64,000 nucleotides of DNA. Origin: a virus. Made by a program: the position numbers and the translations under genes. The DNA is taken from IMG/VR virus record IMGVR_UViG_3300049178_000049. One strand, 5' to 3'. The first letter of the stretch is position 1. Every line of letters begins with the position of its first letter. Below, in pieces: positions 4,212-61,371 of the stretch. A model generated the notes under the pieces. It ran no database searches, had not been told where the DNA came from, and was given only the letters and a program-made list of their open reading frames with translations.

Positions 4212-6083
4212 TCAGCCGTAGTAGGGCTCGCCAACATCGTCCCTGATGAAGTGCGCTTCCCAGACGGGACGACCATCGGGGTACCGCTCCGGGGCATACT
4301 CGGATTCGGCGACCTCGGCTGGTTCAAACGCGCCAACCAGATCGGCACGGCTGAGATCCAGGAGCGATTCCTTGTGCGCCCTCGCCAGTTGCTTCTTGAA
4401 CTCCGCCAGGGTCATGCCAGTAAACCGCGGATCTCTCGTCGCGAGGCGATACGCTGCCGAAATGAACACCTTGTGGCCAGAGCGACCCTGGGTGCGTCCA
4501 TTGGGTCCTCGGGACCCCTTCACCTGAGGCAGCATCTCCCTCACGATCTTGGCGAACTCCGGCAGATCCATGCTGGCGACGGACTGCCGTTGTCGTGCGC
4601 TGCGGTCGCGGATCATGTGGAAGGTCGCACCGCGATCGACGATCTCGGACTCCTCGACTTCCTCGGGATCCGCATCCCCCCTGGCGTCCATCCGGGCGAG
4701 GTCCACGAGGCCCTGCTGGTTCGCTTCGACCAGCCTTCGCTTGAACAAAGAGGGCATGAACGCACGGAACCCCGGGGCTCGCTCCAGCGCGCGCCACGCG
4801 GCTGCAATGAACACCTTGTCTCCGAACCGCCCCATCGGCATCCCCGAGGGCCCGGGGCTCTCGGGGATGGCCGGTAGCGCAGCCTTCACCGCGCTGGCGA
4901 ACTCGGCCAGTGTCATCGGTTGCGGTGGCGGCGCCGCGTCCGCTTGTCCTGGCCTCGCCCCCTGCCCCGGTGCCCGGAGGACGCGCTTCAGATCGTCTGC
5001 CGTCGCCGCGCTTTTCACCAGGACGCGGTGATGGTGGCTGCGGAGCTGGTGCTCGTTCTCCGTGAAGAAGACGAACCGATCCACGAGTTGCGGGTATCGA
5101 TCCTGGATGTGCCGGAACAGATCGAGACCCGTGCGGGGCCCCAGCACGTTCACGTCGGAGATCACGAGACCGAACTCGTGGACCTCCAGATCGGCGATCG
5201 CGGCGCCGACGTTGTCGGCGAAAATGACGTGGGGGTTGGTTACGATCTGTTTCAGCATCCGGGCCAGCCTCGCCTGGATCTTCGGATCGTCCTCCATCAC
5301 CAGGATCTCGATGCCGAGTTGCTTGCCTGATGGGTTGCGCGTGGCACAGACGATGGCCTGGATCCCGTGCCCGAACTCGATGGTCCGGCACGGTTGGTCA
5401 TGCGCTGGCTGAAACTGCCGCAGCCGATGGTAGTTCTCGGTGGTATCGACTGAGCCGTACTTGTACCCGTGATCCTGCGCCCAGCGCTGGGCCTGGCGGA
5501 CGGTGTATCGATCCCCGCTGAACAGAAGACTCTGGACGCTGGAGTTCGGCCATCGTTCACCGGGGTTCGTGGACGGGTTGACCATGGACTCCGGGATGTC
5601 CTCCCAGGACATGTCCCAGGACATCTCTCGCCCATCATCGTCGAGTTCGACGTGGACCGTCGGCAACGCGAACTGTGCAAGGGGACCGGGCTCGTCGGTG
5701 CCAAGGCATACGCTCGCCAGTAGCGCGCCGAATGAGCGACCGGCGGCATCGGGATGAACACCGCGGATTCGTGTGTCGAAGTCGGCATCGGATGCCGATG
5801 TGACGTTCTTGAACATCGCCGCATACGGAAACCGCCCGAGTCCTGGATTCTTCTGAGCGATCCCATCCTCGAGCTCGCGCGCAGCCTGAATACCGGCCGC
5901 GCGGTTCATGACCGTGTCCGGCGCGACCTCCTCCCAGTCGCGACCCTCTGAAACATCGGGGGGTGGCTCAACATCGATCGACCACATCTGGAAGGCGTGC
6001 ACGTAGAGGGCGCGCGCGACGCCCTGGGCCACGTACGTGTCGATGTCCTTAGTGGGTGCTTGTTGGAACAGCGTTCTGGTCAT
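4212..6083 (-). CDS. Multidomain protein: two unknown domains, a response-regulator receiver domain, and two tandem copies of a helical domain
   Basis: REC signature ILVMEDD...ISD...FFT...LVK; duplicated KVFI(A/S)AA...FK..L..A....L.DL.R.D...EV.ESE unit; NP motifs at domain boundaries. Confidence 0.75.
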   Translation of the reverse strand: MTRTLFQQAPTKDIDTYVAQGVARALYVHAFQMWSIDVEPPPDVSEGRDWEEVAPDTVMNRAAGIQAARELEDGIAQKNPGLGRFPYAAMFKNVTSASDADFDTRIRGVHPDAAGRSFGALLASVCLGTDEPGPLAQFALPTVHVELDDDGREMSWDMSWEDIPESMVNPSTNPGERWPNSSVQSLLFSGDRYTVRQAQRWAQDHGYKYGSVDTTENYHRLRQFQPAHDQPCRTIEFGHGIQAIVCATRNPSGKQLGIEILVMEDDPKIQARLARMLKQIVTNPHVIFADNVGAAIADLEVHEFGLVISDVNVLGPRTGLDLFRHIQDRYPQLVDRFVFFTENEHQLRSHHHRVLVKSAATADDLKRVLRAPGQGARPGQADAAPPPQPMTLAEFASAVKAALPAIPESPGPSGMPMGRFGDKVFIAAAWRALERAPGFRAFMPSLFKRRLVEANQQGLVDLARMDARGDADPEEVEESEIVDRGATFHMIRDRSARQRQSVASMDLPEFAKIVREMLPQVKGSRGPNGRTQGRSGHKVFISAAYRLATRDPRFTGMTLAEFKKQLARAHKESLLDLSRADLVGAFEPAEVAESEYAPERYPDGRPVWEAHFIRDDVGEPYYG

Positions 6084-6274
6084 TGTCGCACCTCGGCACG
6101 AGGGGGCATGGCCCGCTTGCAGGCGAGGCACGTCACCCTGTCCCAGTCCTCGGTGCGAATGAACGACGGAGATTCCACCGTGACCGATGCATGATGAACG
6201 TGTTCGGATTCCCCTGCAACGTAATGCTCGGGCGCAATGCCGAGCAACATAGCGTCCGACAGCGCCACAGTCAC
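6080..6274 (-). CDS. Small hypothetical protein
   Basis: GGAGG Shine-Dalgarno, GTG start overlapping upstream stop; CxxC. Confidence 0.5.
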   Translation of the reverse strand: MTVALSDAMLLGIAPEHYVAGESEHVHHASVTVESPSFIRTEDWDRVTCLACKRAMPPRAEVRQ

Positions 6275-6816
6275 ACCTCCCTGGCTCGGTTGTCCTCGAC
6301 GACAAGCCGCAGCCGGCAGAGCGACCCCCCGGTGTGGAGCGCGCCGGGCACGTGCTTGTCGTCGCCGATCTCCCAGGCGCACTCGAAGGGCTCGATCGAC
6401 AACCGTCCGAACATGGAGATCGCTGCCAACTCGGCGACCGAGCTCGCCAACAGATGGATCCGCTTCGCCTGCGGGTTCATGGACCCTGGCTCGTACTCGA
6501 TCTTCTTCTGGTCCCCCCGGATGGTCGAGTGCTTGTGGCACCGGGGGCAGATGATCTGCACCCGCATGGGCTCGCCGGGCAGGGCGTAGACATCCAGGGT
6601 GAGCAGGAGGTCCCCGAACACTACCACCACCTCCTGCTTGCCTGCCGTAAGGCTGTGGGTGGATTGGAGGCCCGTGTGGTTGGTCAGGCCAGTAGGATCC
6701 GGGGCATCCCCGGCCAGTTGCACCACCTCGCGCTTTCCACTGGCAAGAGCCGATGGTCCGGCCAGCATCTGCTGTACGCGGGTGTCGGATAGGTCGACAT
6801 GAAGCGGGCGCGACAT
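6271..6816 (-). CDS. Hypothetical Zn-binding protein
   Basis: CPRCH plus further Cys; coupled to neighbours. Confidence 0.6.
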   Translation of the reverse strand: MSRPLHVDLSDTRVQQMLAGPSALASGKREVVQLAGDAPDPTGLTNHTGLQSTHSLTAGKQEVVVVFGDLLLTLDVYALPGEPMRVQIICPRCHKHSTIRGDQKKIEYEPGSMNPQAKRIHLLASSVAELAAISMFGRLSIEPFECAWEIGDDKHVPGALHTGGSLCRLRLVVEDNRAREV

Positions 6817-6817
6817 C

Positions 6818-7009
6818 CTACTCCGCCTTCCAGTCGCCGCGCTCGATGCGGTCGGCCATGACGTTCAGGGTCATCCGCTTCACCTTGGCCCACGTGACAT
6901 CCCCGCCGTGATCCTCGCCCTCCTTGATGAGTTCATCGAACTTCGCGGCCTCCTTGCGGAGATAGTCTACCACCTTGCGGATGGTCGCTGATTCGGTCTC
7001 GTTCGCCAT
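6818..7009 (-). CDS. Small hypothetical protein
   Basis: MANETESATIRK...; GGAG upstream of next gene. Confidence 0.5.
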   Translation of the reverse strand: MANETESATIRKVVDYLRKEAAKFDELIKEGEDHGGDVTWAKVKRMTLNVMADRIERGDWKAE

Positions 7010-7070
7010 GCCCCATGCTAGCCGGAGGGCAGCCAGATCGGGTAGCCTTTCCGCTCGAAAGGAGTTCGAC

Positions 7071-7410
7071 ATGCCAGACGACCCCGTTGCTGTTCTGATC
7101 CAGCAACTTCGTTCGCCCGCGCATCATGCGTGCTGCGAGTGCCTCGACATGACCAAGAATGAGCGTCCCTGCAGATACTGTAAGGGTAACGAGGCCAACG
7201 AGGTGCGGATGCAGCGGGCAGCAAAGGAACTCGAACGGTTGACAGAAGAACGGTCCAATGCCGAGCACGAGGTCGATCCGGTCAACCCGGCTCACTATCG
7301 CGGGGACACCGTCATGCGGATCATTGAGGACTTCGACCTCGGGTTCTGCCTCGGGAACGTCGTCAAGTACATCCTGCGCCACGCGGCGAAGGCCGGTCTT
7401 GAGGGGTCTT
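7071..7410 (+). pseudogene. DUF3310-like phage protein, truncated at the C-terminus
   Basis: VNPAHY...F.LGNVVKYI.R motif, but the expected DL.KA.WYL ending is absent; frame runs into thyX sequence. Confidence 0.65.
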
Positions 7411-7989
7411 GTCGAGGCCAAGCACGGCGACGAGAAGTTGCTCGCTTTCCTATGGGACAACAAACACGCGACCCCGTTCGAGATGGCCGGCGCGATCATC
7501 GAAGTCCAGGCCCCGATCTTCGTGTTCCGAGAATGGCATCGCCATCGCACACAGAGTTACAACGAGATGTCGGCGCGCTACACGCCGCTGCCCGACGTGA
7601 ACTACATCCCCACGGTCGAGCGCCTGCTGATGAACAGCAAGACCAACAAGCAGGCCGGCACGGTGAGGGGCGCTGCGGAGATGACCCAGCAGAACGCCGA
7701 GATTTACCTGCAGCAACTACGATAGGCCTACGTCGCCGACGAGCGTCTGTACAATCTTGCGCTCGCGGCCGGCGTCCCGAAGGAACTCGCGCGTGTGCAC
7801 CTGCCCGTCGGCCGCTACTCGCGGATGCGCGCCAGCGCCGTGTTGCGCAACTGGCTGTCGTTCCTGACGCTGCGCATGGCGCCAAGCGCGCAGTGGGAGA
7901 TCCGGCAGTACGCCAACGCGGTGCACGACCTGCTGGTCGAGCACTTCCCGCGAACGATGACCTTGTTCGATGGCAGTATAGCGCGCTGA
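7400..7989 (+). pseudogene. thyX: Flavin-dependent thymidylate synthase, 5'-truncated with an in-frame TAG at 7723-7725
   Basis: RHRTQSYNEMSARY signature, PKELAR, LRNWLSFLTLR..AQWEIR all in one frame across the TAG; no start codon or N-terminal segment. Confidence 0.85.
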
Positions 7990-8004
7990 AGCGGCGCTAA
8001 TCCG

Positions 8005-8265
8005 CTACTCCTTCTTCCGCCTCAACAGCAGGAACGCCCCCAGCGCCAGTCCCCCGATGAGCAGCACGCTCGTCGTGCTGGTCCCCTGCTGCGCTGCGAG
8101 CGCCGCCTGCAGATCACGGTTGCTCTGCGCAGCCGCGCCCTGCGCCTGTTGTGTCGAGCCGTAGATCTGCAGCACCGAGCCGGCATCGCTGATGAGCGTG
8201 TCGAACCAACTACCCATGCCGGAGTAGCCGGACCGAACCACCATGTCGTTCCTCATGTACGCCAT
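8005..8265 (-). CDS. Tail-anchored putative virion membrane protein
   Basis: Leader ...SGMGS; C-terminal TM plus RRKKE. Confidence 0.75.
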   Translation of the reverse strand: MAYMRNDMVVRSGYSGMGSWFDTLISDAGSVLQIYGSTQQAQGAAAQSNRDLQAALAAQQGTSTTSVLLIGGLALGAFLLLRRKKE

Positions 8266-8270
8266 GGCGC

Positions 8271-8711
8271 TCAACTCCGCCGCGCCAGCAGCACCGCCGC
8301 CAGGACTCCAGCGCCAGCCAGAGCCAGGAGGGTCGTGGTGGACATGCCGGACTGCGCTGGCATGATCACCGCTGGTTGCGGCGCCAGACCCGCGCCGAAT
8401 GCCTTCGCGATCGCGGAGAGAATGCCGGTACCGCTGTCCGAACTCGTGGGGGCACCAGGCGGGCTACCCGCCGGATGGGCCGGATCCGGGTCGACCGCGT
8501 AGCCCGGAGCCCGGTACGTCGACCCATCGGCGTTGAACGTGGTCATCCCACCGTCGGGGGTCGCACAGTAGTTGCCGGGCTTCCGGTACGGGTCGCCCAG
8601 CGGGATCTCGGAGCACTGGGTGGAGTCCGAGTAGTCGCCCATGCCCAGAAGGCCGCGTCGGCGGATAGCGGGGCGGGGTGCGGGGGTGCGGACGCGCTTG
8701 AAGTAGGACAT
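8271..8711 (-). CDS. Tail-anchored putative virion membrane protein
   Basis: MSYFKR...RRRGLLGMGD; C-terminal TM plus RRS. Confidence 0.8.
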   Translation of the reverse strand: MSYFKRVRTPAPRPAIRRRGLLGMGDYSDSTQCSEIPLGDPYRKPGNYCATPDGGMTTFNADGSTYRAPGYAVDPDPAHPAGSPPGAPTSSDSGTGILSAIAKAFGAGLAPQPAVIMPAQSGMSTTTLLALAGAGVLAAVLLARRS

Positions 8712-8714
8712 GGG

Positions 8715-8963
8715 TCACTCCTTGGACCAAAGCCAGTATGCCAGATACGCCAGCCCGCCCCAAAGCACGTACTGGATCAGGCCGGACGAGGCGACCGGGG
8801 CTGGAGCCGTGGTCGGCGGCATGGCTACAGTCGGGACAATTGGCACTACGATGGGCGGCGACATGCCGCCGGGCGACACGATGGTGCCCGTCGCGTCGTC
8901 GCCCATGCTTCCGCGACGGACCATGAACGACGACCGCGGCGTCTTGCGCATGGCGTAGCTCAC
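8715..8963 (-). CDS. Tail-anchored putative virion membrane protein
   Basis: GTG start MSYAMRK...RRGSMGDD; C-terminal TM. Confidence 0.8.
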   Translation of the reverse strand: MSYAMRKTPRSSFMVRRGSMGDDATGTIVSPGGMSPPIVVPIVPTVAMPPTTAPAPVASSGLIQYVLWGGLAYLAYWLWSKE

Positions 8964-9580
8964 GATGACGACCTCTTGCGAAAGAACAGGAAATAGGCGG
9001 CGAGGGCGGCGCCTCCCGCGATGAGCACGTTCCGCATCGTGTTGTCGCTCGACGGAGCGACCATGGCCGGTTCGCCTGTGTCCAGCGTGGGGATCGGGGG
9101 GATCGGCAGAGAGATCGGCGCTGGGCCCATGGCTACGCCGACATTGCTCGCGCCCCCTCCGCCCCCGCCTCCGGCATCCGTCGAAGACGACGGTGGTGCT
9201 GGTGTCGGTGGTGGCAAGAGCGTGCCCGGATCTACCGGCTGCGGGCGCGGCGCCGGGCCGACGTTCGACACGGTGTACGCGGGCGGTGGCTGCGGGGTGA
9301 TGTCCGTCGATGTGGTGACCGAGGTGTACGTCGCGCCGGGCGTGAAGCCAATCTTGTACGTTCCGGATGGAGTGCCGGTGGCGACCCCGGCACCTGCTGC
9401 ACCTGGGTCCATGGCCACCAGTCCCAGCGCCCCGCGCGCGATGCTCGCCATGGCACGATCCCTGGCTCGGGTCGCCCGCGCTCGCCGCAACTGCAGCGCC
9501 CGCCGCCCCGGCGAGTTGTCCGCCGACGCGATAGCGCGCACGCCGCGGGTCGCGCGGTCCGGGTCCCGCATGTACGACAT
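8960..9580 (-). CDS. Pro/Thr-rich tail-anchored putative virion membrane protein
   Basis: MSYMR basic leader...GALG; C-terminal TM plus RKR. Confidence 0.8.
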   Translation of the reverse strand: MSYMRDPDRATRGVRAIASADNSPGRRALQLRRARATRARDRAMASIARGALGLVAMDPGAAGAGVATGTPSGTYKIGFTPGATYTSVTTSTDITPQPPPAYTVSNVGPAPRPQPVDPGTLLPPPTPAPPSSSTDAGGGGGGGASNVGVAMGPAPISLPIPPIPTLDTGEPAMVAPSSDNTMRNVLIAGGAALAAYFLFFRKRSSS

Positions 9581-9921
9581 CAGTGGTGGCCCCCGTGCCC
9601 ACCATGATGGCCACCGCCATGGCGCCCGGACCCGAAGCTACCCCACGACGGCCCCCAACCCCGGGGACCGTACAAGTCGTAGCTGTCGTCGGGCTGCACG
9701 ATGACGACGGCAGGAACGATGGCGCTGGCACCGGCCTGGGAAGCGTCGGTCGCGGCAGCGATGTCCGCCGACGAAGCGTCGGTTCCCGACGAGGCAGGCG
9801 TGGTCGCGGTGACCGCAGCAGTCGAGGCTGAGGTCGATGCCGCCTGCGACGCTGCACTCTTCTTGTAGAAGTAGTAGCCCGCCGCTGCGGCCCCGATCAG
9901 CCAGAGAGTTGACGTCTTCAT
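9580..9921 (-). CDS. N-anchored Ala/Ser-rich membrane protein with His/Gly tail
   Basis: MKTSTLWLIGAAAAGYYFYKK; coupled stop/start. Confidence 0.7.
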   Translation of the reverse strand: MKTSTLWLIGAAAAGYYFYKKSAASQAASTSASTAAVTATTPASSGTDASSADIAAATDASQAGASAIVPAVVIVQPDDSYDLYGPRGWGPSWGSFGSGRHGGGHHGGHGGHH

Positions 9922-9923
9922 GG

Positions 9924-10253
9924 TCACTTCCTTCCCAGTTCGTAGCCGATCCACATGGGGATACCGATGGCCGCAAGCAGGGCCACCGGATACACCCACT
10001 TGTTCTGCTGGGCGTAGACGTAGCCGCGTAGGACCGGCAGAGCGTTCTGGATCCATGGCATTCCGATACCGGGCGGCGTCTCGGCGCAGACGCCCACTGG
10101 TTGGCCCCGATCGATGGCCTGGAGTTGCTGGATGCGGCAGACGACCTCGGGCATCGCCGGATCGCTGGCGACATCGAGCACCGTTCCGATGGTGCCAACG
10201 ACATCCCCCATGGCCTGGGAGGGTAGGCGTTTGCGGTAGCGCTGGTAGCTCAT
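9924..10253 (-). CDS. Tail-anchored putative virion membrane protein
   Basis: MSYQRYRKR...AMGD; C-terminal TM plus RK. Confidence 0.8.
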   Translation of the reverse strand: MSYQRYRKRLPSQAMGDVVGTIGTVLDVASDPAMPEVVCRIQQLQAIDRGQPVGVCAETPPGIGMPWIQNALPVLRGYVYAQQNKWVYPVALLAAIGIPMWIGYELGRK

Positions 10254-10397
10254 GGTTTGCCTTTCGTGGCGAGCCCGCCTGGGGTCGCCCGTCGCTGGGT
10301 CGACGCCTTTTCCGGGATTTGAGGTTCGACGTGGGAAAGGAGACCACGGCGCTCTCATCGCCGACTTGCATCGACGAGCGGCCTCAGGCGGGCTTGA

Positions 10398-10997
10398 TCA
10401 CGACCTCCCTTTCCTGTCGAAGGCGTGCTTGACGCCGAGTTTCTCCCACGCGAACCACGCCAGCGCCAGGACGCCGCCTGCCTTCAGCCAGAAGCCATAG
10501 TCCGTGCACGCACCAGCCTCGATGCATGCGGTCTGCTCCTGGTTCTTCGCCACATCCGCCGCCGACGAGATAGCGGTCGTGGTCACCAAAAGGAGCCCGC
10601 CGACGATGAGCACCGGCCACAGCCATGGGTGCCCACCTGCACTGAGGATGCCGCCGGTCGGCGACGGGCTCGAAAGCGTGGAGGGGCCGGCCAGCGCGAC
10701 CTGCGCGAGTTGCACCGCGCCGGCGGGGTTGACCGACAGATCGGCGACGGGGAGTGTCTGTCCCGGCATGAGTGCGGCGAGGAGCACCGAGAGCTTGGTG
10801 GCCAAGTCCTGCTCGATGGCCATGTCGCGCTGCGCCACGACACGCTGCGCATAGGCCAAGGGCCTGCGCACCTTGGCGGTTCCGGCGGTGACCTGATCGT
10901 TGAGCGCTCGGTACTTGAGCCACGAGGCCAGGCTGCCCCGCATCCTGGCGAGCTCGGCGGCGGCCCTCTGGACGTCTTGCGTGGTGATGGCGGTCAT
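10398..10997 (-). CDS. Putative virion membrane protein with two TM helices
   Basis: Two hydrophobic helices near the C-terminus; coupled start. Confidence 0.75.
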   Translation of the reverse strand: MTAITTQDVQRAAAELARMRGSLASWLKYRALNDQVTAGTAKVRRPLAYAQRVVAQRDMAIEQDLATKLSVLLAALMPGQTLPVADLSVNPAGAVQLAQVALAGPSTLSSPSPTGGILSAGGHPWLWPVLIVGGLLLVTTTAISSAADVAKNQEQTACIEAGACTDYGFWLKAGGVLALAWFAWEKLGVKHAFDRKGRS

Positions 10998-11551
10998 CGC
11001 TTGCGCTCCATGAGCCACCACACGGCCAGAATCCCGCCCGCCAGCATCAACGTGCCGCTGGAAAGCCCTGTGTCGGACACGGTCGCGCTGCCCGGTGCGG
11101 GTGGGATCCCCAGCGAATCAGCAAACGCCTGGAGCGTCTGGGTGACCTGTCCGAGGTGGGTAGTCACGAAGCTGACCGGGTCGGCGAACCCGGCATTCGC
11201 GTCGGCGATGGCCTGTTGGGACCCAGCGTCGTGGAATTGATTGTAGGCGTCGCTGGCTCGGCGCTGGTAGATCGTCAGGGCCGTGGTGGCAAGCCCGACG
11301 CCAATCGGTAGCAGCGTGATGCCCAGCAGGGCCACCGGAGCCGTGAATGGCGTGGTCACGAACTGGTACGCCGACGGTGCCCCAGGACCGAACCGATTGA
11401 CCTGGGCGACCAGATCGGCGGGCGTCGCATCCGCGGTGACATCGCCCACGGGCTGATGAACGGCTAGCCACGTGGCTCCGCGACGCCTGTAGGGACTCAG
11501 CCCGTGCGCGCGCTGCCATGCAGCGAAGTCGCGTGGCGCCATGTACGTCAT
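10994..11551 (-). CDS. Tail-anchored putative virion membrane protein
   Basis: MTY leader...PVGD; C-terminal TM plus RKR; ATG overlaps capsid B stop. Confidence 0.8.
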   Translation of the reverse strand: MTYMAPRDFAAWQRAHGLSPYRRRGATWLAVHQPVGDVTADATPADLVAQVNRFGPGAPSAYQFVTTPFTAPVALLGITLLPIGVGLATTALTIYQRRASDAYNQFHDAGSQQAIADANAGFADPVSFVTTHLGQVTQTLQAFADSLGIPPAPGSATVSDTGLSSGTLMLAGGILAVWWLMERKR

Positions 11552-12177
11552 CAGAGGTTGACGATCCGGAAGCCAGGGAAGTCGACGTGGAGCGTGCCCT
11601 GCGTCGGCGCGACGGGTGTTCCATTGAAGGTGATGGCTTGGTAGATCGGCACGAAGTTGAGGGTGGCGTTGGGCGCCCACTGCACGGGCGAGGGCAGGGG
11701 GACGACATTGTCCGGCCTCGAGAAGAGGGGGCCGCGCGGCGCGTTCTGGAACTGCCTCTGCGAGCCGCCGTCCACGATCTCGTACTGCAGATCGATGATG
11801 TCGGTGCTCACGACCTGTGTTGGCAAGGGGAAGGTCGACACCGGGCGCCAGCGACCGAAGTTGGTGGCGTTGTCGGGCGCGCTGGGAAACCAGAGCACGA
11901 GGGGGTAGTGCGTCTGGATGAACGGGCCATCCTGCGACACCGTGATGATCACCGGCGTGGCCCGCTTCCCCAGATCGGAGATGGTGAACGTCACCTCCCC
12001 CGACAGCGTGCTCTCGATCCACCGGCCGGGGATCTTGTTGATCTCGTCCCAGACCGTGTCCGGCTTCGTCTGCAGGGCGTTGACCTGCGCAATGAGCTGG
12101 TTGACGGTGTTCGTGAGGTTGGTGATCGCGACCTTGTGCGTCCGGACGGCGTAGGCCACTGTGGAATCGGTCGTCAT
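11551..12177 (-). CDS. Putative single jelly-roll capsid protein B
   Basis: Beta-strand-rich, 208 aa; I.DGGS.R.FQN.P...LP.P....PN..L pattern recalled from jelly-roll capsid proteins; adjacent to capsid A. Confidence 0.55.
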   Translation of the reverse strand: MTTDSTVAYAVRTHKVAITNLTNTVNQLIAQVNALQTKPDTVWDEINKIPGRWIESTLSGEVTFTISDLGKRATPVIITVSQDGPFIQTHYPLVLWFPSAPDNATNFGRWRPVSTFPLPTQVVSTDIIDLQYEIVDGGSQRQFQNAPRGPLFSRPDNVVPLPSPVQWAPNATLNFVPIYQAITFNGTPVAPTQGTLHVDFPGFRIVNL

Positions 12178-12247
12178 GTTGTCTCCCTTGCGGGGTATCT
12201 CCCGGCAAGCCGGGGTAGCATCACGCCAGGGAAACCCCGGCGGTGGC

Positions 12248-13002
12248 CAACTCGTGAACTCGGTAGAGCGCCCGACCAGCCGGTCAAGGCCAATCGGGCG
12301 CCGGGGCGGTCACTGCACGTCGCGAGTTTGCAAACCGTCGAGCATAAACAGAATGTTCAGGATGTCGTCCGTGTCAGCAGCGTTCAGCCCGTTGAGGGCG
12401 CTCGTCGTGCCGATCGCGAAGAAGTCCGCCTGGGCGGCGAAGTTCTGCCGGACGGGCACGATGATCGGCCTCGCGAGCTTCAGGATCGATGCCTGCTCCG
12501 GGGTGCCGTGCGAGAAGATCGACGCGGTGGAGTCGAAGCCCCACACGCCGCCGCCCGCCGGGTAGTACCAGCACGGCGCCTGGAACATCGGCTTGGTGCC
12601 AACGACCAGCGTCCAGAACAGCTGCGACGTCACGTTCAGGTAGTTGTCCCGACGGTTCGGCCCGTCGAAGAACATGAAGCAGCGCAGGGCCAGGATGACG
12701 TACGTCTGATCCGAGGCGAGTTGGCCGGCGGTCTGGAGGTTGGTCAGCGCCAGGTTGCCGATGTTGGCGTTGCCGAACAGCTTGGTGCTGTTCACGATGG
12801 GGGTGGCCGGGGCGCCCGTGGAGCGCACCAGCGTATCCCAGAGCGGCTGGTGGAGCCGCTCGCGGTATCCGTGGAGACGAGGCATCGAAGAGTTCCTTTG
12901 CGGTACGTTTGATTCGGCGACCGGGGAGGGATTTCCGCTGTCACCTGGCTGGGACCGCCAGCCACAACTCGTGAACTCGGTGTTCGATCTCGTGAACTCG
13001 GT
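12248..13002. repeat. Three copies of CTCGTGAACTCGGT flanking capsid gene A (12251-12264, 12968-12981, 12989-13002)
   Basis: Read directly; the first two share 17 identical nt (CAACTCGTGAACTCGGT). Confidence 0.9.
12310..12885 (-). CDS. Putative single jelly-roll major capsid protein A
   Basis: Beta-strand-rich, 191 aa; PLWDT...LF...TNL...GQL motif; strong RBS; flanked by structured intergenic regions; next to Arg-rich core gene. Confidence 0.55.
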   Translation of the reverse strand: MPRLHGYRERLHQPLWDTLVRSTGAPATPIVNSTKLFGNANIGNLALTNLQTAGQLASDQTYVILALRCFMFFDGPNRRDNYLNVTSQLFWTLVVGTKPMFQAPCWYYPAGGGVWGFDSTASIFSHGTPEQASILKLARPIIVPVRQNFAAQADFFAIGTTSALNGLNAADTDDILNILFMLDGLQTRDVQ

Positions 13003-13009
13003 CTACCGG

Positions 13010-13025
13010 CGCACCGCGCGGTGCG
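13010..13025. terminator. Perfect 16-bp palindrome CGCACCGCGCGGTGCG just after the core-protein stop; candidate terminator or processing hairpin
   Basis: Perfect dyad followed by TTTT on the plus strand. Confidence 0.4.
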
Positions 13026-13032
13026 TTTTGGA

Positions 13033-14514
13033 TCAGCCCCCGCCGCCGAACTTGCCGCCGAAGATGCCCGCGTACAGATCAGCAGATGCGTCGAATGCGG
13101 GCGTCACGCCCGGGATCCCCTTGGTGAAGGAGCGGGCAGGGATCGGCTGGATGAACGCCTGGGACGGGACCTGCTTCAGCATGGCCATGGAGCCGCTGGT
13201 GGGGCCCGGCAGGCCACCCAGGAGCACGTTGCCGAGCTCCTCGTCGACGCCCAGTTCCTCCTCCACTCCCATGCCCAGTTCCTGCTCCACGCCATCGGCG
13301 CCCACGGCCACGTAGTCGGACATGGTGATGCGCTCGTTGAGGGGTGGCGCTGCACCGACGGCCACGTAGTCGCCCATGTTGACGTAGTCGCCGACCGCCG
13401 ACTGAATGCTGGCCGGGGCAAACGCCGTCCAGAGCGAGGCCAGCGCCTGGAAGCCCGCGCCCATCATGGCCTGCTCACGGTACCTCGAGAGCGCGCCCAC
13501 CTTCTTCGTAACGAAGTTGGTGAGCAGCAGCGAGGCCACGGACAGCACGGGCCCCTGCAGCGTGCCCAGCGAGGACACGACCGGCAGCATGGGGCCGAAC
13601 TTGTTCACGACCATCCGGTTGGCCAGGAACGAGACGGCCACGGGGATGACGCGCTTGAGCTCGGTGAAAATGTCCCCGATGCCGGGATTCCGGCGGTACC
13701 GACGGTAGGATCGCCGACGCCCGCGCCGGTGCGACCGCCTGCGCCGCACGGTGTATCCGCGCCGGTGCGACCGCCGCCGCTTCCGGCGCCGACGCCCGGG
13801 GTTCATCCGGACGGTGGTGGCCTCGGGGCCCATCAGCATGTGCAGCCGCCGCGAGGACATCCGCTTGGTGGCGCGGCGCCCCTTGCGACGCCGCCGACTG
13901 GGCCGGGTCACCCGCACGCCATGAATGGTGGTGTGTACCGTACGGCGACGGCGCCTCCGCGACGCATGACTGCGGCGCGCGCGAGCGCGCTTCCGGTGCA
14001 CCGACTTCCGGGCGCGGCGCTTCTTGCCGCCCCCCGACCGGCGCGCACGCCGACGCTTGGTGCGGCCCAGCGCGCCCATCTTGCCGGCGCGCTTGCGGGC
14101 CCTCCAGTACCGCTTCATGGCGGCGCTTCGCTTCTTCGACCCTTTGGCCATTGAATTGCTCCTGGGGCTGCGGTTCTTGCGGCTGCGCCAGCCCTTGAGC
14201 GCTGCCCGTCGCCGTTTCTTGACCGCCCACGGGTGGGCGTTGCCGGCGCGGCGCCGCCCGGCGGGATTCCTTCGATGCTTCGCCCAGTAGTCCCTCAGCG
14301 GCTTGGGCATGCGATGACGCCGCCGGGTGCGGGTGCCGTGCTTCGCCCAGTAGCGGGCGAGTGCGACCGGCTGGCGAGCCTTGCGTCGCTTGTGATGCGG
14401 CGGGCGATCCGGCGCCCCGTAGCGGGGCCGACGCTTGCGAGCGGGGTTGCTCACCGCCGCGCTGCCACGGATCCGCAGCCCGCGACGCTTGCCGTTGACG
14501 AAGAGGATGGGCAC
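13033..14514 (-). CDS. Arg-rich (protamine-like) core protein with membrane domain and acidic tail
   Basis: About 275 N-terminal residues dominated by R/K/H with four NP motifs, then a hydrophobic helical domain, then GDYV/ELG repeats; probable GTG start. Confidence 0.8.
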   Translation of the reverse strand: MPILFVNGKRRGLRIRGSAAVSNPARKRRPRYGAPDRPPHHKRRKARQPVALARYWAKHGTRTRRRHRMPKPLRDYWAKHRRNPAGRRRAGNAHPWAVKKRRRAALKGWRSRKNRSPRSNSMAKGSKKRSAAMKRYWRARKRAGKMGALGRTKRRRARRSGGGKKRRARKSVHRKRARARRSHASRRRRRRTVHTTIHGVRVTRPSRRRRKGRRATKRMSSRRLHMLMGPEATTVRMNPGRRRRKRRRSHRRGYTVRRRRSHRRGRRRSYRRYRRNPGIGDIFTELKRVIPVAVSFLANRMVVNKFGPMLPVVSSLGTLQGPVLSVASLLLTNFVTKKVGALSRYREQAMMGAGFQALASLWTAFAPASIQSAVGDYVNMGDYVAVGAAPPLNERITMSDYVAVGADGVEQELGMGVEEELGVDEELGNVLLGGLPGPTSGSMAMLKQVPSQAFIQPIPARSFTKGIPGVTPAFDASADLYAGIFGGKFGGGG

Positions 14515-21526: not shown

Positions 21527-22099
21527 TTAGGCCGCGACCGGCCAGACGGAAGCATCGACGATACGGCGTAGCATCTGCGGGGTCTTCTCGGCAGCGACCG
21601 GGTCCAGCACGATGCGGGTCCGGTTTCTGGGCTCGAGGGCCCGCGTGAACACGTGGCTGTGCTGGATGCGGCCGTCGTAGTACATGCGCTTGAAGGCGCA
21701 GGTGACGAAGTCCGGCTGCCCGCCAACCGACAGGATCGCAGACGCCAGCCAGAGCGCCCCGTCGTCGCAGTCGATGGACGGCCGATGACCGGCCAGGATC
21801 TGGCGGCTGATAATGTAGGGCGCCCGAACGAGCTCGGTCCGCCTGGGGTCCCGCATGTATCGGGTGCGCTGGAGCAGGCAATAGTACAGCGCCATGTACT
21901 CGGACGCGTAGTCCTTCGAGTCGAGGCCCTCGCACACTGCCTCGGCCAACTGGCGCGTCTCGAAGTGGTTGGCGTCGTCGAGCGCCGCCCTGCGCATGAC
22001 GTCGATGGTCTGCGGTGCCCCGAAGTAGCCGCTCCGGCTGGTCGGCGGCTCGTCGGCCATCCAGAACAGGCGCGACCCGCCGTACCCCAGACCGGACAT
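21527..22099 (-). CDS. Transglutaminase-like cysteine protease (candidate virion maturation protease)
   Basis: DCDD (Cys), SHVF (His), LDP (Asp) triad in the canonical order; alternative start at 22060. Confidence 0.8.
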   Translation of the reverse strand: MSGLGYGGSRLFWMADEPPTSRSGYFGAPQTIDVMRRAALDDANHFETRQLAEAVCEGLDSKDYASEYMALYYCLLQRTRYMRDPRRTELVRAPYIISRQILAGHRPSIDCDDGALWLASAILSVGGQPDFVTCAFKRMYYDGRIQHSHVFTRALEPRNRTRIVLDPVAAEKTPQMLRRIVDASVWPVAA

Positions 22100-60735: not shown

Positions 60736-61371
60736 ATGGCGAGATCCCGACTACACCGCCGGTACGTCAAGAAGACCTTCAAGGCGAACCCTCCGCTGTT
60801 CACGGACCTCGTGGAGTTCGTGATCCCGGGATTCGGAGGGTTCGCGGCCACCCGGTTCGTGACGCGCGTCGCCATGACCCAGGTCGCGCAGCGAGCGCCA
60901 TCCTGGGGCAAGCACGCCGGGGCGGTCGCCTCGGTCGGCTCGTTCTTGGCGGCATGGTTTCTGGCCCACAAGTGGAAGTGGCTCGAAAAGTGGCACACCC
61001 CCATCGTGGTGGGCTCGGCGATCGCAGCCGGGCAGTCGCTGCTCCAGATCTACGCCCCGAACCTTCTGGGGTGGATCGTGTCGGACGCGACGCCCGAGCT
61101 CGCAGCCGGCACCGCCCAGGCCGCGCTCACCGCGCCGGACCAGCAACTGGCCCAATTGCACCTGCAGCCGACCAACGAGGATCCCAACGAGTTCACCTAC
61201 AACGACTCGTATGACGCCGGACGGTACAACGGCCAGCAGGGTCCAGGCTCCATGAAGGTAGGCCCCTTGCCGCCCAACCAGCCGGTACAATCGCCACCGG
61301 CCACCGACGGTTCAGACTTGGCGATCGATGACGCCATCGGCACCGCGAACCTGGGCGTGTTCGCCAACTAG
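60736..61371 (+). CDS. Paralog of the membrane domain of the Arg-rich core protein
   Basis: Basic leader ending KANP, then FT.L...VIP....F.A.R.V...V.SV.S.L...F...K...G....A..SL....AP aligning with 13033-14514. Confidence 0.75.
   Translation: MARSRLHRRYVKKTFKANPPLFTDLVEFVIPGFGGFAATRFVTRVAMTQVAQRAPSWGKHAGAVASVGSFLAAWFLAHKWKWLEKWHTPIVVGSAIAAGQSLLQIYAPNLLGWIVSDATPELAAGTAQAALTAPDQQLAQLHLQPTNEDPNEFTYNDSYDAGRYNGQQGPGSMKVGPLPPNQPVQSPPATDGSDLAIDDAIGTANLGVFAN

What the first reader, a model, noticed from the sequence alone, without database searches (positions are those of the whole stretch)
5320..14514. A second recurrent signal, x-N-P, at module boundaries
Seen: VSNP, RRNP, RMNP and RRNP punctuate the Arg-rich protein, the last exactly at the basic/membrane boundary. 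KANP marks the same boundary in 60736-61371. VNPSTNP (~5570) and TRNP (~5330) separate domains of the 4212-6083 protein. Inference: a second cleavage or packaging code for core polyproteins, distinct from the G-D code of membrane proteins.
Basis: partly seen in the sequence, partly recalled or inferred. Interest (0 to 1): 0.7.

Follow-up and report, generated by a model that had tools for sequence, protein, structure and literature searches.

The report
Conserved Asn-Pro punctuation of virion proteins
An Asn-Pro pair marks the ends of protein modules in two unrelated protein families of a large group of uncultured ~80-kb bacterial viruses far more often than chance allows. Whether it is a cutting site, a docking tag or only a hinge has not been tested.

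Summary
All listed NP sites are at the stated coordinates.

**Arg-rich protein (13033-14514, minus).** Its C-terminal helical domain defines a family of at least 406 sequence clusters.
- At the basic/helical boundary, Asn is present in 125 of 126 aligned representatives and Pro in 118 of 126.
- In the polybasic N-terminal extensions, 289 of 472 Asn are followed by Pro, against 22 expected.
- Ser-Pro and Thr-Pro are not enriched.

**60736-61371.** This protein is a short-leader paralogue with the same boundary NP.

**4212-6083 family (19 homologues).**
- NP follows the N-domain in 17/17 fused forms and ends module 2 in 13/13.
- NP flanks most lineage-specific inserts.
- NP is absent at the REC/helical junctions.

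Codons at NP vary, so the constraint is on the protein.

Cleavage is not shown. No protease with such specificity is known. One natural gene fission drops the NP, and one NP lies inside the folded REC domain. My odds are: processing site about 0.4, non-cleaved docking or packaging tag about 0.3, structural hinge about 0.25. An earlier scan note on another genome describes a similar 80-kb virus. It did not address this motif.

The parts
13033..14514 (-). Gene for the Arg-rich protein (493 aa). Layout: polybasic N-terminal domain (aa 1-277, 42% Arg+Lys), helical amphipathic domain, then an acidic repeat tail. The probable start is the GTG at 14514, which gives MPILFVNG.
   Evidence: The family N-terminus consensus is M-P-[IL]-x-[YF]-V-N-[PG]. 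Orthologues with an ATG at this position are seen.
14443..14448 (-). NP site 1 (VSNP, aa 23-24). It is conserved in L001-L003 and is the site after which relatives carry NP-terminated inserts.
14263..14268 (-). NP site 2 (RRNP, aa 83-84), conserved in the three close relatives.
13798..13803 (-). NP site 3 (TVRMNP followed by an Arg run, aa 238-239). The element G..T-[VL]-[RK]-[MY]-N-P-[SG]-RRRRR recurs across the family.
13684..13689 (-). NP site 4, the boundary NP (YRRYRRNP-G, aa 276-277). Asn is present in 125/126 aligned family representatives and Pro in 118/126. It sits two residues before a confidently predicted 31-residue helix.
13390..13683 (-). Helical amphipathic domain (about aa 278-375): three long helices with pLDDT above 86.
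   Evidence: The best weak fold match is SPV1 VP3.
13036..13389 (-). Acidic repeat tail (GDYV / EELG repeats) and conserved C-terminus (LYAGIFGG). It is predicted to be disordered.
60736..61371 (+). Short-leader paralogue of the helical and tail domain. It has a 17-aa basic leader and then KANP.
   Evidence: N10 and P11 invariant in A1. Ten B-type representatives all carry NPP at the boundary.
60787..60792 (+). Boundary NP of the paralogue.
4212..6083 (-). Multi-module protein (623 aa). Order of parts: helical N-domain, linker, small beta-alpha-beta module 2, receiver (REC) domain, two helical repeats.
   Evidence: PF00072..
5562..5579 (-). Linker NPs (VNPSTNP, aa 169-174) between the N-domain and module 2. 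They lie in a stretch with pLDDT below 50. An NP is present here in 17/17 fused homologues.
5331..5336 (-). NP (TRNP, aa 250-251) directly after the last strand of module 2 and before REC. It is present in 13/13 homologues that have module 2.
5232..5237 (-). NP (TNPH, aa 283-284) inside the REC domain, so not at a boundary. It is conserved in the REC-bearing homologues P0151, P0153, P0160 and P0161. It reads Ser-Pro in P0159 and Asp-Pro in L014.
5844..5849 (-). NP (KNPG, aa 79-80) at the end of a helix inside the N-domain. The Asn is invariant in the family but the Pro is not conserved.
21527..22099 (-). Context only. Transglutaminase-core-like Cys protease candidate in the same minus-strand late operon. 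No link to NP is shown.
   Evidence: feature score 0.97 to PF01841-bearing viral clusters. (present in 3/3 complete relatives). (intein-like insert at the catalytic Cys in one relative). Pfam itself gave no hit.

Best explanation
NP is a specifically selected, protein-level short linear motif. It terminates exchangeable modules in at least two unrelated virion-operon protein families of this virus group.

The mechanism I think most likely is proteolytic processing. On this reading the multi-module precursors are cut at or next to Asn-Pro.
- The protamine-like domain would be divided into basic peptides and detached from the helical domain.
- The N-domain and module 2 would be released from the 4212-6083 protein.

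**Shown:**
- the motif exists;
- it is extremely conserved;
- it is specific for Asn, with Ser, Thr and Asp not substituting;
- it lies in disordered linkers or at domain edges;
- it flanks lineage-specific inserts;
- the constraint is not at DNA level.

**Inferred:**
- that a bond is broken;
- which bond is broken;
- by what agent, whether a viral or host endopeptidase or Asn-succinimide self-cleavage.
For: 1. **Conservation beyond a generic turn.** At the boundary, Asn is 125/126 and Pro 118/126 among representatives less than 50% identical to each other.
2. **Asn specificity.** In the basic extensions N-P is enriched 13.6-fold. S-P (0.9x), T-P (1.1x) and D-P (1.6x) are not. One third of all Pro residues there are in NP.
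3. **The same dipeptide in a second, unrelated family.** It lies in a variable-length disordered linker (pLDDT below 50). It is present whichever module follows: module 2, two kinds of insert, REC or the helical domain.
4. **Inserts and indels come as NP-terminated units in both families**. This is the pattern expected when new cargo must be flanked by processing sites.
5. **A natural fission drops the NP.** In L014 the N-domain is a separate gene and neither new end carries NP. The NP is therefore junction-specific, and the modules can work as separate polypeptides.
6. **The constraint is on the protein.** Codons at orthologous NPs vary (AAC/AAT, all four CCN codons).
7. **Precedents.** Asn-Pro is the scissile bond in RsgI autoproteolysis (PMC10328401) and, from my own knowledge, in FlhB/YscU and reovirus mu1. 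Phage P1 DarA and DdrB, proteins of the polyvalent type, are processed before packaging (PMC5512222).
Against: - No cleavage product has been observed by any means.
- No endopeptidase is known that cuts Asn-Pro, and Pro at P1' blocks most proteases (established knowledge).
- Known Asn-Pro self-cleavage needs a folded beta-turn context such as NPTH. That context is absent here. The sites are predicted disordered and are followed by G, S, A or R.
- The only protease candidate found is transglutaminase-like.
- NP is missing at the REC/helical and helical/helical junctions.
- NP is kept at the C-terminal end of P0167, where no module follows.
- NP283 is a conserved turn inside REC.
- NP in the C-domains is at the chance level, so it is not avoided there.
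- The first NP lies only 7 residues from the N-terminus. Cutting there would release a tiny, yet highly conserved, hydrophobic peptide.
Confidence: 0.4

Rival explanations
1. NP is a docking or packaging tag that is not cleaved. A short hydrophobic or amphipathic strand followed by an Asn-Pro turn binds a virion component. Candidates are the inner capsid face, a membrane protein or a chaperone. Binding would recruit the basic protein and the cargo modules into particles. Examples of the strand plus turn are MPIMYV-NP, TVRM-NP and YRMRS-NP.
For: - Asn specificity and extreme conservation fit recognition by a partner.
- The N-terminal octapeptide M-P-[IL]-x-[YF]-V-N-P is found in 39 of 86 long forms, and similar elements recur internally.
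- Residues at -3 and -5 of the boundary are aromatic or Met, alternating with Arg. This is what a beta-augmentation motif would look like.
- A conserved 7-residue N-terminal piece makes more sense as a ligand than as a released peptide.
- Both families are encoded in the virion-gene operon. The Arg-rich gene always lies directly upstream of the two candidate capsid genes.
Against: - No partner has been identified and no binding test was run.
- In the 4212-6083 family the residues before NP vary (D, R, G, A, S, E, V, Q, P), so only the NP itself would be recognised. That is little for a binding motif.
- The NPs in poly-Arg runs have no hydrophobic strand.
- Docking does not explain why inserts need an NP on both sides.
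Confidence: 0.3
2. NP is a purely structural hinge. An Asx-Pro turn or helix N-cap would break the helical, Ala/Arg/Lys-rich basic segments so that they can wrap DNA, much like the neutral residues between Arg blocks of protamines or the SPKK/SPRRR turns. It would also cap the first helix of the helical domain and give flexible joints between modules.
For: - The boundary NP is two residues before a confident 31-residue helix.
- NP79 ends a helix and NP283 is a loop inside REC. This lineage therefore also uses NP as an ordinary turn.
- NP is followed by a small residue and then a run of Arg/Lys. This resembles S-P-R-R-R.
- At the N-terminal motif, Pro is replaced by Gly in the window's own clade (VNG). 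Asn-Gly is another strong turn former.
- NP is retained at the end of module 2 even when nothing follows.
- Asn-Pro cannot deamidate (established chemistry), so it is the only stable Asn in a long-lived disordered region.
Against: - A generic turn or cap should tolerate Ser, Thr and Asp. None replaces Asn among 126 boundary positions or about 30 junctions. S-P and T-P are at chance in the basic domains although Ser and Thr are two to three times commoner than Asn.
- A DNA-wrapping role cannot explain the same motif in the linkers of the non-basic 4212-6083 family.
- The spacer between the last structured residue of the N-domain and the NP varies from about 3 to 12 residues, so NP is not a cap of that fold.
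- NP is lost when the gene is split.
Confidence: 0.25
3. NP reflects chance, amino-acid composition or a DNA-level signal, such as a repeated nucleotide motif, a recombination joint or a methylation site, that merely happens to encode Asn-Pro.
For: - Indels among close relatives are bounded by repeats encoding NPAR. Recombination between such repeats could therefore create NP-to-NP units.
- The whole rough proteome of the window has a slight NP excess (44 against 29.9).
Against: - There are 289 observed against 22 expected across 101 diverged proteins, and no excess in their C-domains.
- Excluding the two proteins, the window shows no significant excess (35 against 28.3).
- Orthologous NPs use AAC or AAT and all four Pro codons, with variable flanks.
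- Near-invariance at the boundary across at least 126 clusters requires selection on the protein.
Confidence: 0.03

Closest known systems
Adenovirus core-precursor maturation (pVII and pX/Mu cut by adenain at (M/I/L)XGG-X or (M/I/L)XGX-G). Cited from my own knowledge.
   Same: - An Arg-rich DNA-condensing precursor carries short conserved motifs that delimit basic peptides.
- pX also joins an Arg-rich peptide to a hydrophobic C-terminal part.
- A virus-encoded Cys protease gene lies among the structural genes.
   Different: - The motif is N-P, not Gly-based.
- No clan CE protease was found. The candidate here is transglutaminase-like.
- There is no homology.
- Cleavage is not shown here.
- The host is bacterial.
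Asn-Pro autoproteolysis (asparagine peptide lyases): FlhB/YscU NPTH and reovirus mu1 Asn42-Pro43 (my own knowledge), and the anti-sigma factor RsgI (PMC10328401).
   Same: - The same dipeptide is the functional unit.
- The Asn is strictly required and conserved.
- In mu1 the cut releases a small N-terminal hydrophobic peptide from a virion protein.
   Different: - Those sites are single and sit in a folded beta-turn with conserved neighbours such as Thr-His.
- Here there are up to 9 sites per protein, in predicted disorder, followed by G, S, A or R.
- There is no sequence or fold similarity.
SPKK/SPXX turns of histone H1 and sperm H2B, and the SPRRR repeats of the hepatitis B core C-terminal domain. 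Cited from my own knowledge.
   Same: - A small polar residue plus Pro, followed by basic residues, is repeated within a protamine-like nucleic-acid-binding tail.
- A turn formed by a side-chain-to-backbone hydrogen bond is expected.
   Different: - Asn replaces Ser/Thr. S-P and T-P are not enriched at all.
- The same motif also marks linkers of a non-basic protein.
- No phosphoregulation is possible.
Polyvalent proteins of phages and conjugative elements, and processing of phage P1 DarA/DdrB before packaging (PMC5512222).
   Same: - The 4212-6083 family has a variable, shuffled multi-domain architecture next to virion and lysis genes.
- Its module 2 fold also occurs fused to methyltransferase, peptidase and NUDIX entries.
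- Release of domains by proteolysis is a proposed theme for this class.
   Different: - The protein is much smaller, with 2-6 modules.
- No embedded metallopeptidase domain was found.
- The REC domain is not a reported polyvalent module: 'receiver' has 0 occurrences in that paper.
- No cleavage motif is defined for that class.
Picornavirus-type 2A 'StopGo' peptides (D-x-E-x-N-P-G / P). Cited from my own knowledge.
   Same: N-P-G occurs at several sites: KNPG, TNPG, RMNPG and RRNPG.
   Different: - None of the three window proteins has NPGP.
- The upstream D-x-E is absent.
- 2A works only on eukaryotic ribosomes.
- I rejected this comparison.

Membership tests
Asparagine peptide lyase self-cleavage sites (FlhB/YscU NPTH type; reovirus mu1 type) | Conserved Asn-Pro dipeptide with a strictly conserved Asn | tested here: met
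   Asn 125/126 and Pro 118/126 at the boundary. 17/17 and 13/13 at the junctions of the 4212-6083 family.
Asparagine peptide lyase self-cleavage sites (FlhB/YscU NPTH type; reovirus mu1 type) | The site is embedded in a folded beta-turn with conserved following residues (Thr-His in FlhB/YscU) | tested here: not met
   Following residues are G/S/A/R and then basic or hydrophobic. AF2 places the sites in low-confidence coil.
Asparagine peptide lyase self-cleavage sites (FlhB/YscU NPTH type; reovirus mu1 type) | Sequence or fold homology to FlhB-C or mu1 | tested here: not met
   No Pfam, PHROG or PDB-profile match. Fold searches gave no such hit.
Asparagine peptide lyase self-cleavage sites (FlhB/YscU NPTH type; reovirus mu1 type) | The peptide bond is actually broken | not testable with these tools
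   This needs protein chemistry or proteomics.
Viral core-precursor processing by a virus protease (adenovirus type) | Consensus (M/I/L)XGG-X or (M/I/L)XGX-G at the cut sites | tested here: not met
   The sites are x-N-P.
Viral core-precursor processing by a virus protease (adenovirus type) | A virus-encoded maturation protease | tested here: inconclusive
   A transglutaminase-core-like Cys protease candidate lies at 21527-22099 (a language-model feature match only; Pfam gave no hit). It is conserved in 3/3 complete relatives. Its specificity is unknown.
Viral core-precursor processing by a virus protease (adenovirus type) | An Arg-rich DNA-condensing precursor delimited by repeated short motifs | tested here: met
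   42% Arg+Lys over 277 aa with 4 NPs. The family median is 4 NPs per long form. DNA binding itself was not tested.
SPKK/SPXX DNA-binding turn motifs | Ser or Thr before Pro, followed by two basic residues | tested here: not met
   Asn occupies the position. S-P is at 0.9x and T-P at 1.1x of expectation. Basic residues follow from position +3.
Helix N-cap / Asx-Pro turn (generic structural motif) | Located immediately before a helix or in a tight turn | tested here: met
   The boundary NP is two residues before H54-84 of the model. NP79 is at a helix end and NP283 is in a REC loop.
Helix N-cap / Asx-Pro turn (generic structural motif) | Interchangeable with Ser, Thr or Asp at the cap position across homologues | tested here: not met
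   There is no S, T or D among 126 boundary positions, and none at the two junctions of the 4212-6083 family. Only the intradomain REC site varies, to Asp in L014 and to Ser in P0159.
2A StopGo peptides | N-P-G-P with upstream D-x-E, on a eukaryotic ribosome | tested here: not met
   There is no NPGP in the three window proteins. The virus carries bacterial-type genes: M23 peptidase, integrase, DUF5131.
Polyvalent proteins (Iyer et al. 2017) | Variable multi-domain architecture built from exchangeable modules in a phage late-gene context | tested here: met
   19 homologues show at least 6 architectures. The gene lies next to an M23 peptidase gene. The module 2 fold recurs in methyltransferase, peptidase and NUDIX fusions.
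Polyvalent proteins (Iyer et al. 2017) | Embedded processing peptidase (MPTase) or other signature effector domains | tested here: not met
   Pfam finds only the REC domain. A DGNHR-containing insert in P0154 looks ParB-like by eye, but Pfam gave no hit.

The most novel reading that the evidence does not exclude
The virus group uses Asn-Pro as a true scissile code. On this reading, enzyme-free Asn-succinimide (asparagine-lyase) chemistry, or a protease with a so far unknown Asn/Pro specificity, cuts a membrane-tethered protamine-like precursor at several sites inside the assembled particle. The cuts would yield Mu-like basic peptides that each begin with Pro, like the native Met-Pro N-terminus. 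The same code would free cargo modules of a small polyvalent protein. This would be the first multi-site Asn-Pro processing system, and the first maturation code for a tailless membrane-containing bacterial virus.
Probability: 0.12. Interest if true: 0.85.

Novelty: new variant of a known kind. Interest (0 to 1): 0.62.

Why it matters
The Arg-rich/helical protein is a hallmark gene of a large, uncharacterised group of about 80-kb tailless viruses. It has at least 406 clusters at 50% identity and always lies next to the two candidate capsid genes. The group is known only from metagenomes.

A two-residue motif that is nearly invariant and 13-fold enriched gives a concrete experimental handle on how these particles are built. 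It bears on how DNA is condensed without an obvious packaging motor, how a protamine-like domain is tied to the internal layer, and how cargo modules are added.

If NP is a cut site, it defines a new protease or self-cleavage specificity and a ready-made rule for predicting mature virion proteins across hundreds of genomes. If it is a docking tag, it is a portable packaging signal.

There is also a practical point. Gene callers systematically truncate this gene just after the boundary NP, so databases under-represent the basic domain.

Tried and rejected
- **DNA-level motif.** Rejected, because codons and flanks vary at orthologous NPs.
- **Composition or chance.** Rejected.
- **Gene split at the boundary NP in the Arg-rich family.** 24 of 150 representatives appear to start just after the NP. 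All 3 I could check (P0074, P0007, P0025) are truncated gene calls whose upstream frame carries the full basic domain and the NP. P0058 had no DNA available.
- **Known families.**
  - Pfam and PHROGs gave nothing for the Arg-rich protein, its paralogue or module 2.
  - The PDB profile search gave only spurious Utp24 hits at E 0.05.
  - tblastn and blastn against 50,697 phage records found no match.
- **Fold searches.**
  - The model of aa 1-262 of the 4212-6083 protein had no PDB match.
  - AFDB clusters identified only module 2 as a small recurrent domain.
  - The C-domain of the Arg-rich protein gave only a weak BFVD hit to SPV1 VP3 (E 0.039).
- **2A-like NPGP.** Absent.
- **More relatives of the 4212-6083 N-domain in IMG/VR.** Only the three known contigs were found.
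- **Literature.** Searches for an Arg-rich core protein in jelly-roll membrane phages found nothing. The SPV1/SEV1 papers say nothing about NP.
- **Rfam scan of the interrupted capsid-gene loci.** No hit.
- **Complex prediction.** Not used, because no specific partner could be named with enough reason.

Full report
**What the window is.** The window has about 65% G+C, no tRNA genes and no match in the cultured-phage collection. Genes identified by Pfam include an M23 peptidase, a tyrosine integrase and DUF5131. Close relatives are IMG/VR contigs of 80-83 kb with direct terminal repeats, rated complete. First-stage notes describe a tailless, membrane-containing virus with two small capsid proteins. 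I did not test the capsid fold. The three proteins in the finding are encoded at 13033-14514 (-), 4212-6083 (-) and 60736-61371 (+).

**The observation.**
- The Arg-rich protein has 4 NPs against 0.85 expected. Four of the 8 Asn in its 277-aa basic domain are followed by Pro (p 6.5e-4).
- The 4212-6083 protein has 5 NPs against 1.0 expected.
- With these two proteins removed, a rough gene call of the rest of the window gives 35 NPs against 28.3 expected. The signal therefore belongs to particular proteins and not to the genome's composition.

**The Arg-rich family.**
- *Close orthologues.* Four related contigs keep 5 to 9 NPs each. In the most distant one (L004, capsid-gene identity 50%), 9 of 11 Asn in the basic domain are NP (p 6e-10).
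- *Paralogue.* The protein at 60736-61371 aligns over its whole length with the C-terminal part of the Arg-rich protein, and the alignment starts at the NP. It is a paralogue with a 17-residue leader.
- *Size of the family.* A profile of this C-terminal part found 406 clusters at E <= 0.001 among 1.84 billion representatives.
- *Boundary.* In the 126 of the best 150 representatives that cover the boundary, Asn is present in 125 and Pro in 118. These are the most conserved positions of the family. The consensus is [RY]-R-[MY]-R-[SR]-N-P-[GSA].
- *Basic extensions.* These were not part of the profile, apart from about nine residues before the boundary. In the 101 extensions of 40 aa or more, 289 of 472 Asn are followed by Pro against 22 expected. 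The C-domains have 29 against 29.8.
- *Specificity.* Only Asn shows the effect. N-P is enriched 13.6-fold, S-P 0.9, T-P 1.1 and D-P 1.6.
- *Context.* Arg/Lys occupy positions -2 and -1, a small residue or Arg occupies +2, and Arg/Lys run from +3 to +6.
- *Recurrent elements ending in NP.*
  - The N-terminus M-P-[IL]-x-[YF]-V-N-P occurs in 39 of 86 long forms. The window's clade has N-G at this position.
  - G..T-[VL]-[RK]-[MY]-N-P comes before the last Arg block.
  - In other clades a roughly 40-aa basic module ends in Y-R-M-R-S-N-P and is sometimes duplicated.
- *Indels.* Among close relatives, indels come as NP-terminated units inserted after the first NP.

**Structure of the Arg-rich protein.** AlphaFold2 on aa 226-493 with 64 sequences gave mean pLDDT 68. 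Three long helices have pLDDT above 86, and the first begins two residues after the NP. The basic part and the acidic tail are low-confidence coil. The helices are amphipathic rather than clearly membrane-spanning. The only fold lead is a weak match to SPV1 structural protein VP3. This agrees loosely with an earlier scan note on another genome.

**The 4212-6083 family.**
- *Architectures.* Nineteen homologues were found, with at least six architectures.
- *Model.* AlphaFold2 on aa 1-262 (mean pLDDT 81) shows four parts in order.
  - A helical N-domain with a hairpin runs to aa 159.
  - A linker at aa 164-176 has pLDDT below 50 and contains both NPs of VNPSTNP.
  - A beta-alpha-beta module 2 spans aa 183-246.
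  - TRNP follows directly after the last strand of module 2.
- *First junction.* In the alignment, an NP follows the N-domain in all 17 fused forms, after a spacer of variable length. This holds whatever comes next: module 2, two kinds of insert, or the C-terminal helical domain.
- *Second junction.* Module 2 ends in V-C-x-[TRS]-[RSD]-N-P in 13 of 13.
- *Inserts.* The inserts in P0154, P0168 and P0161 are flanked by NP on both sides.
- *Exceptions.*
  - There is no NP between REC and the helical repeats (0/5) or between the repeats (0/4).
  - The insert of P0152 and P0155 lacks the downstream NP.
  - NP79 is a loop inside the N-domain whose Pro is not conserved.
  - NP283 lies inside REC.
- *Family total.* 46 NPs against 10.9 expected.
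- *Natural experiments.*
  - In L014 the N-domain is a separate gene ending in ..SWR. The next gene starts MTPPSANGNW.., so the NP is gone when the modules are not fused.
  - P0167 ends six residues after the module 2 NP, and an unrelated gene follows.

**What this excludes.**
- Chance and composition are excluded.
- A DNA-level signal is excluded, because orthologous sites use AAC or AAT and all four Pro codons.
- A generic turn or helix cap does not explain the absolute preference for Asn over Ser, Thr and Asp. It also does not explain the same dipeptide in variable-length disordered linkers of an unrelated protein.
- A 2A-type signal is excluded.
- Homology to known Asn-Pro self-cleaving domains is excluded.

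**What remains.** NP is a specifically selected short linear motif at module ends. Three mechanisms fit.
- *Processing (about 0.4).*
  - For: it best explains why inserts carry an NP on both sides, why NP is junction-specific, and why Asn is irreplaceable.
  - Precedents: RsgI (PMC10328401), FlhB/YscU and reovirus mu1 (my own knowledge), and processing of phage P1 DarA/DdrB (PMC5512222).
  - Against: no enzyme for N-P is known. Self-cleavage normally needs a folded context. Several junctions lack NP.
- *A non-cleaved docking or packaging tag (about 0.3).* It explains the conserved hydrophobic strands before several NPs, especially the N-terminal octapeptide.
- *A structural hinge (about 0.25).* It fits the helix that follows the boundary NP and the N-G variant, but it fits the Asn specificity poorly.

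A transglutaminase-like Cys protease candidate is encoded in the same operon and conserved in 3/3 complete relatives. One relative carries an intein-like insert at its catalytic Cys. Nothing links this candidate to NP.

**Verdict.** The interpretation as a cleavage or packaging code is plausible but unproven. The motif appears to be undescribed.

Noticed in passing
L021:1471-3030 (IMGVR_UViG_3300019360_000002), homologue of window 21527-22099 (-): The transglutaminase-like Cys protease candidate of a distant relative carries an intein-like insertion of about 330 aa exactly at the presumed catalytic Cys. The junctions read ..PQID / CLPQGT.. and ..TVSN / CDDMAG... This suggests the enzyme is active and important.
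   Followed up: partly
L004:7779-9204 and L018:2599-3941 (orthologues of window 12310-12885): The very conserved 191-aa candidate capsid gene is 99.5% identical among close relatives. In two distant relatives it is interrupted after about residue 45 by an insertion of 0.7-0.8 kb that changes the frame. In L018 the insertion holds a 226-aa ORF. No Rfam intron model matched.
   Followed up: partly
L008:5161-6000, L010:4900-6000, L018:1059-1835: Public gene calls systematically truncate the Arg-rich gene at an internal Met just after the boundary NP. In L008 a spurious antisense ORF is called over the basic region. 24 of the 150 best family representatives look like this, and 3 of 3 checked are truncations.
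   Followed up: yes
L014:3001-4757: Natural fission of the 4212-6083 type protein. The N-domain (148 aa) and the rest (438 aa: module 2, REC and helical repeats) are separate genes that overlap by 4 nt.
   Followed up: yes
window 5340-5555 (-), module 2 of the 4212-6083 protein: This small beta-alpha-beta domain also occurs as a stand-alone 72-aa protein (TM 0.77). It is also fused to entries named DNA methyltransferase, peptidase and NUDIX hydrolase in AFDB clusters. It has no Pfam model.
   Followed up: partly
C-terminus of the Arg-rich family (for example L003:3301-3981, ..YDNPADLYAGIF..): A further semi-conserved NP sits just before the C-terminal L-Y-x-G-I-F motif in some members. 22 of the 29 C-domain NPs cluster there. 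The window's own protein lacks it.
   Followed up: no
window 13036-13683 (-): The best viral fold match of the helical domain is structural protein VP3 of Sulfolobus polyhedral virus 1 (Foldseek E 0.039, probability 0.97, TM by target 0.46). The match is weak, but it agrees with an earlier scan note that links a similar virus to SPV1.
   Followed up: no
P0154 (homologue of 4212-6083), aa about 300-480: An extra insert of about 185 aa containing a D-G-N-H-R motif, which looks ParB/Srx-like by eye, is flanked by NP on both sides. Pfam gave no hit.
   Followed up: partly
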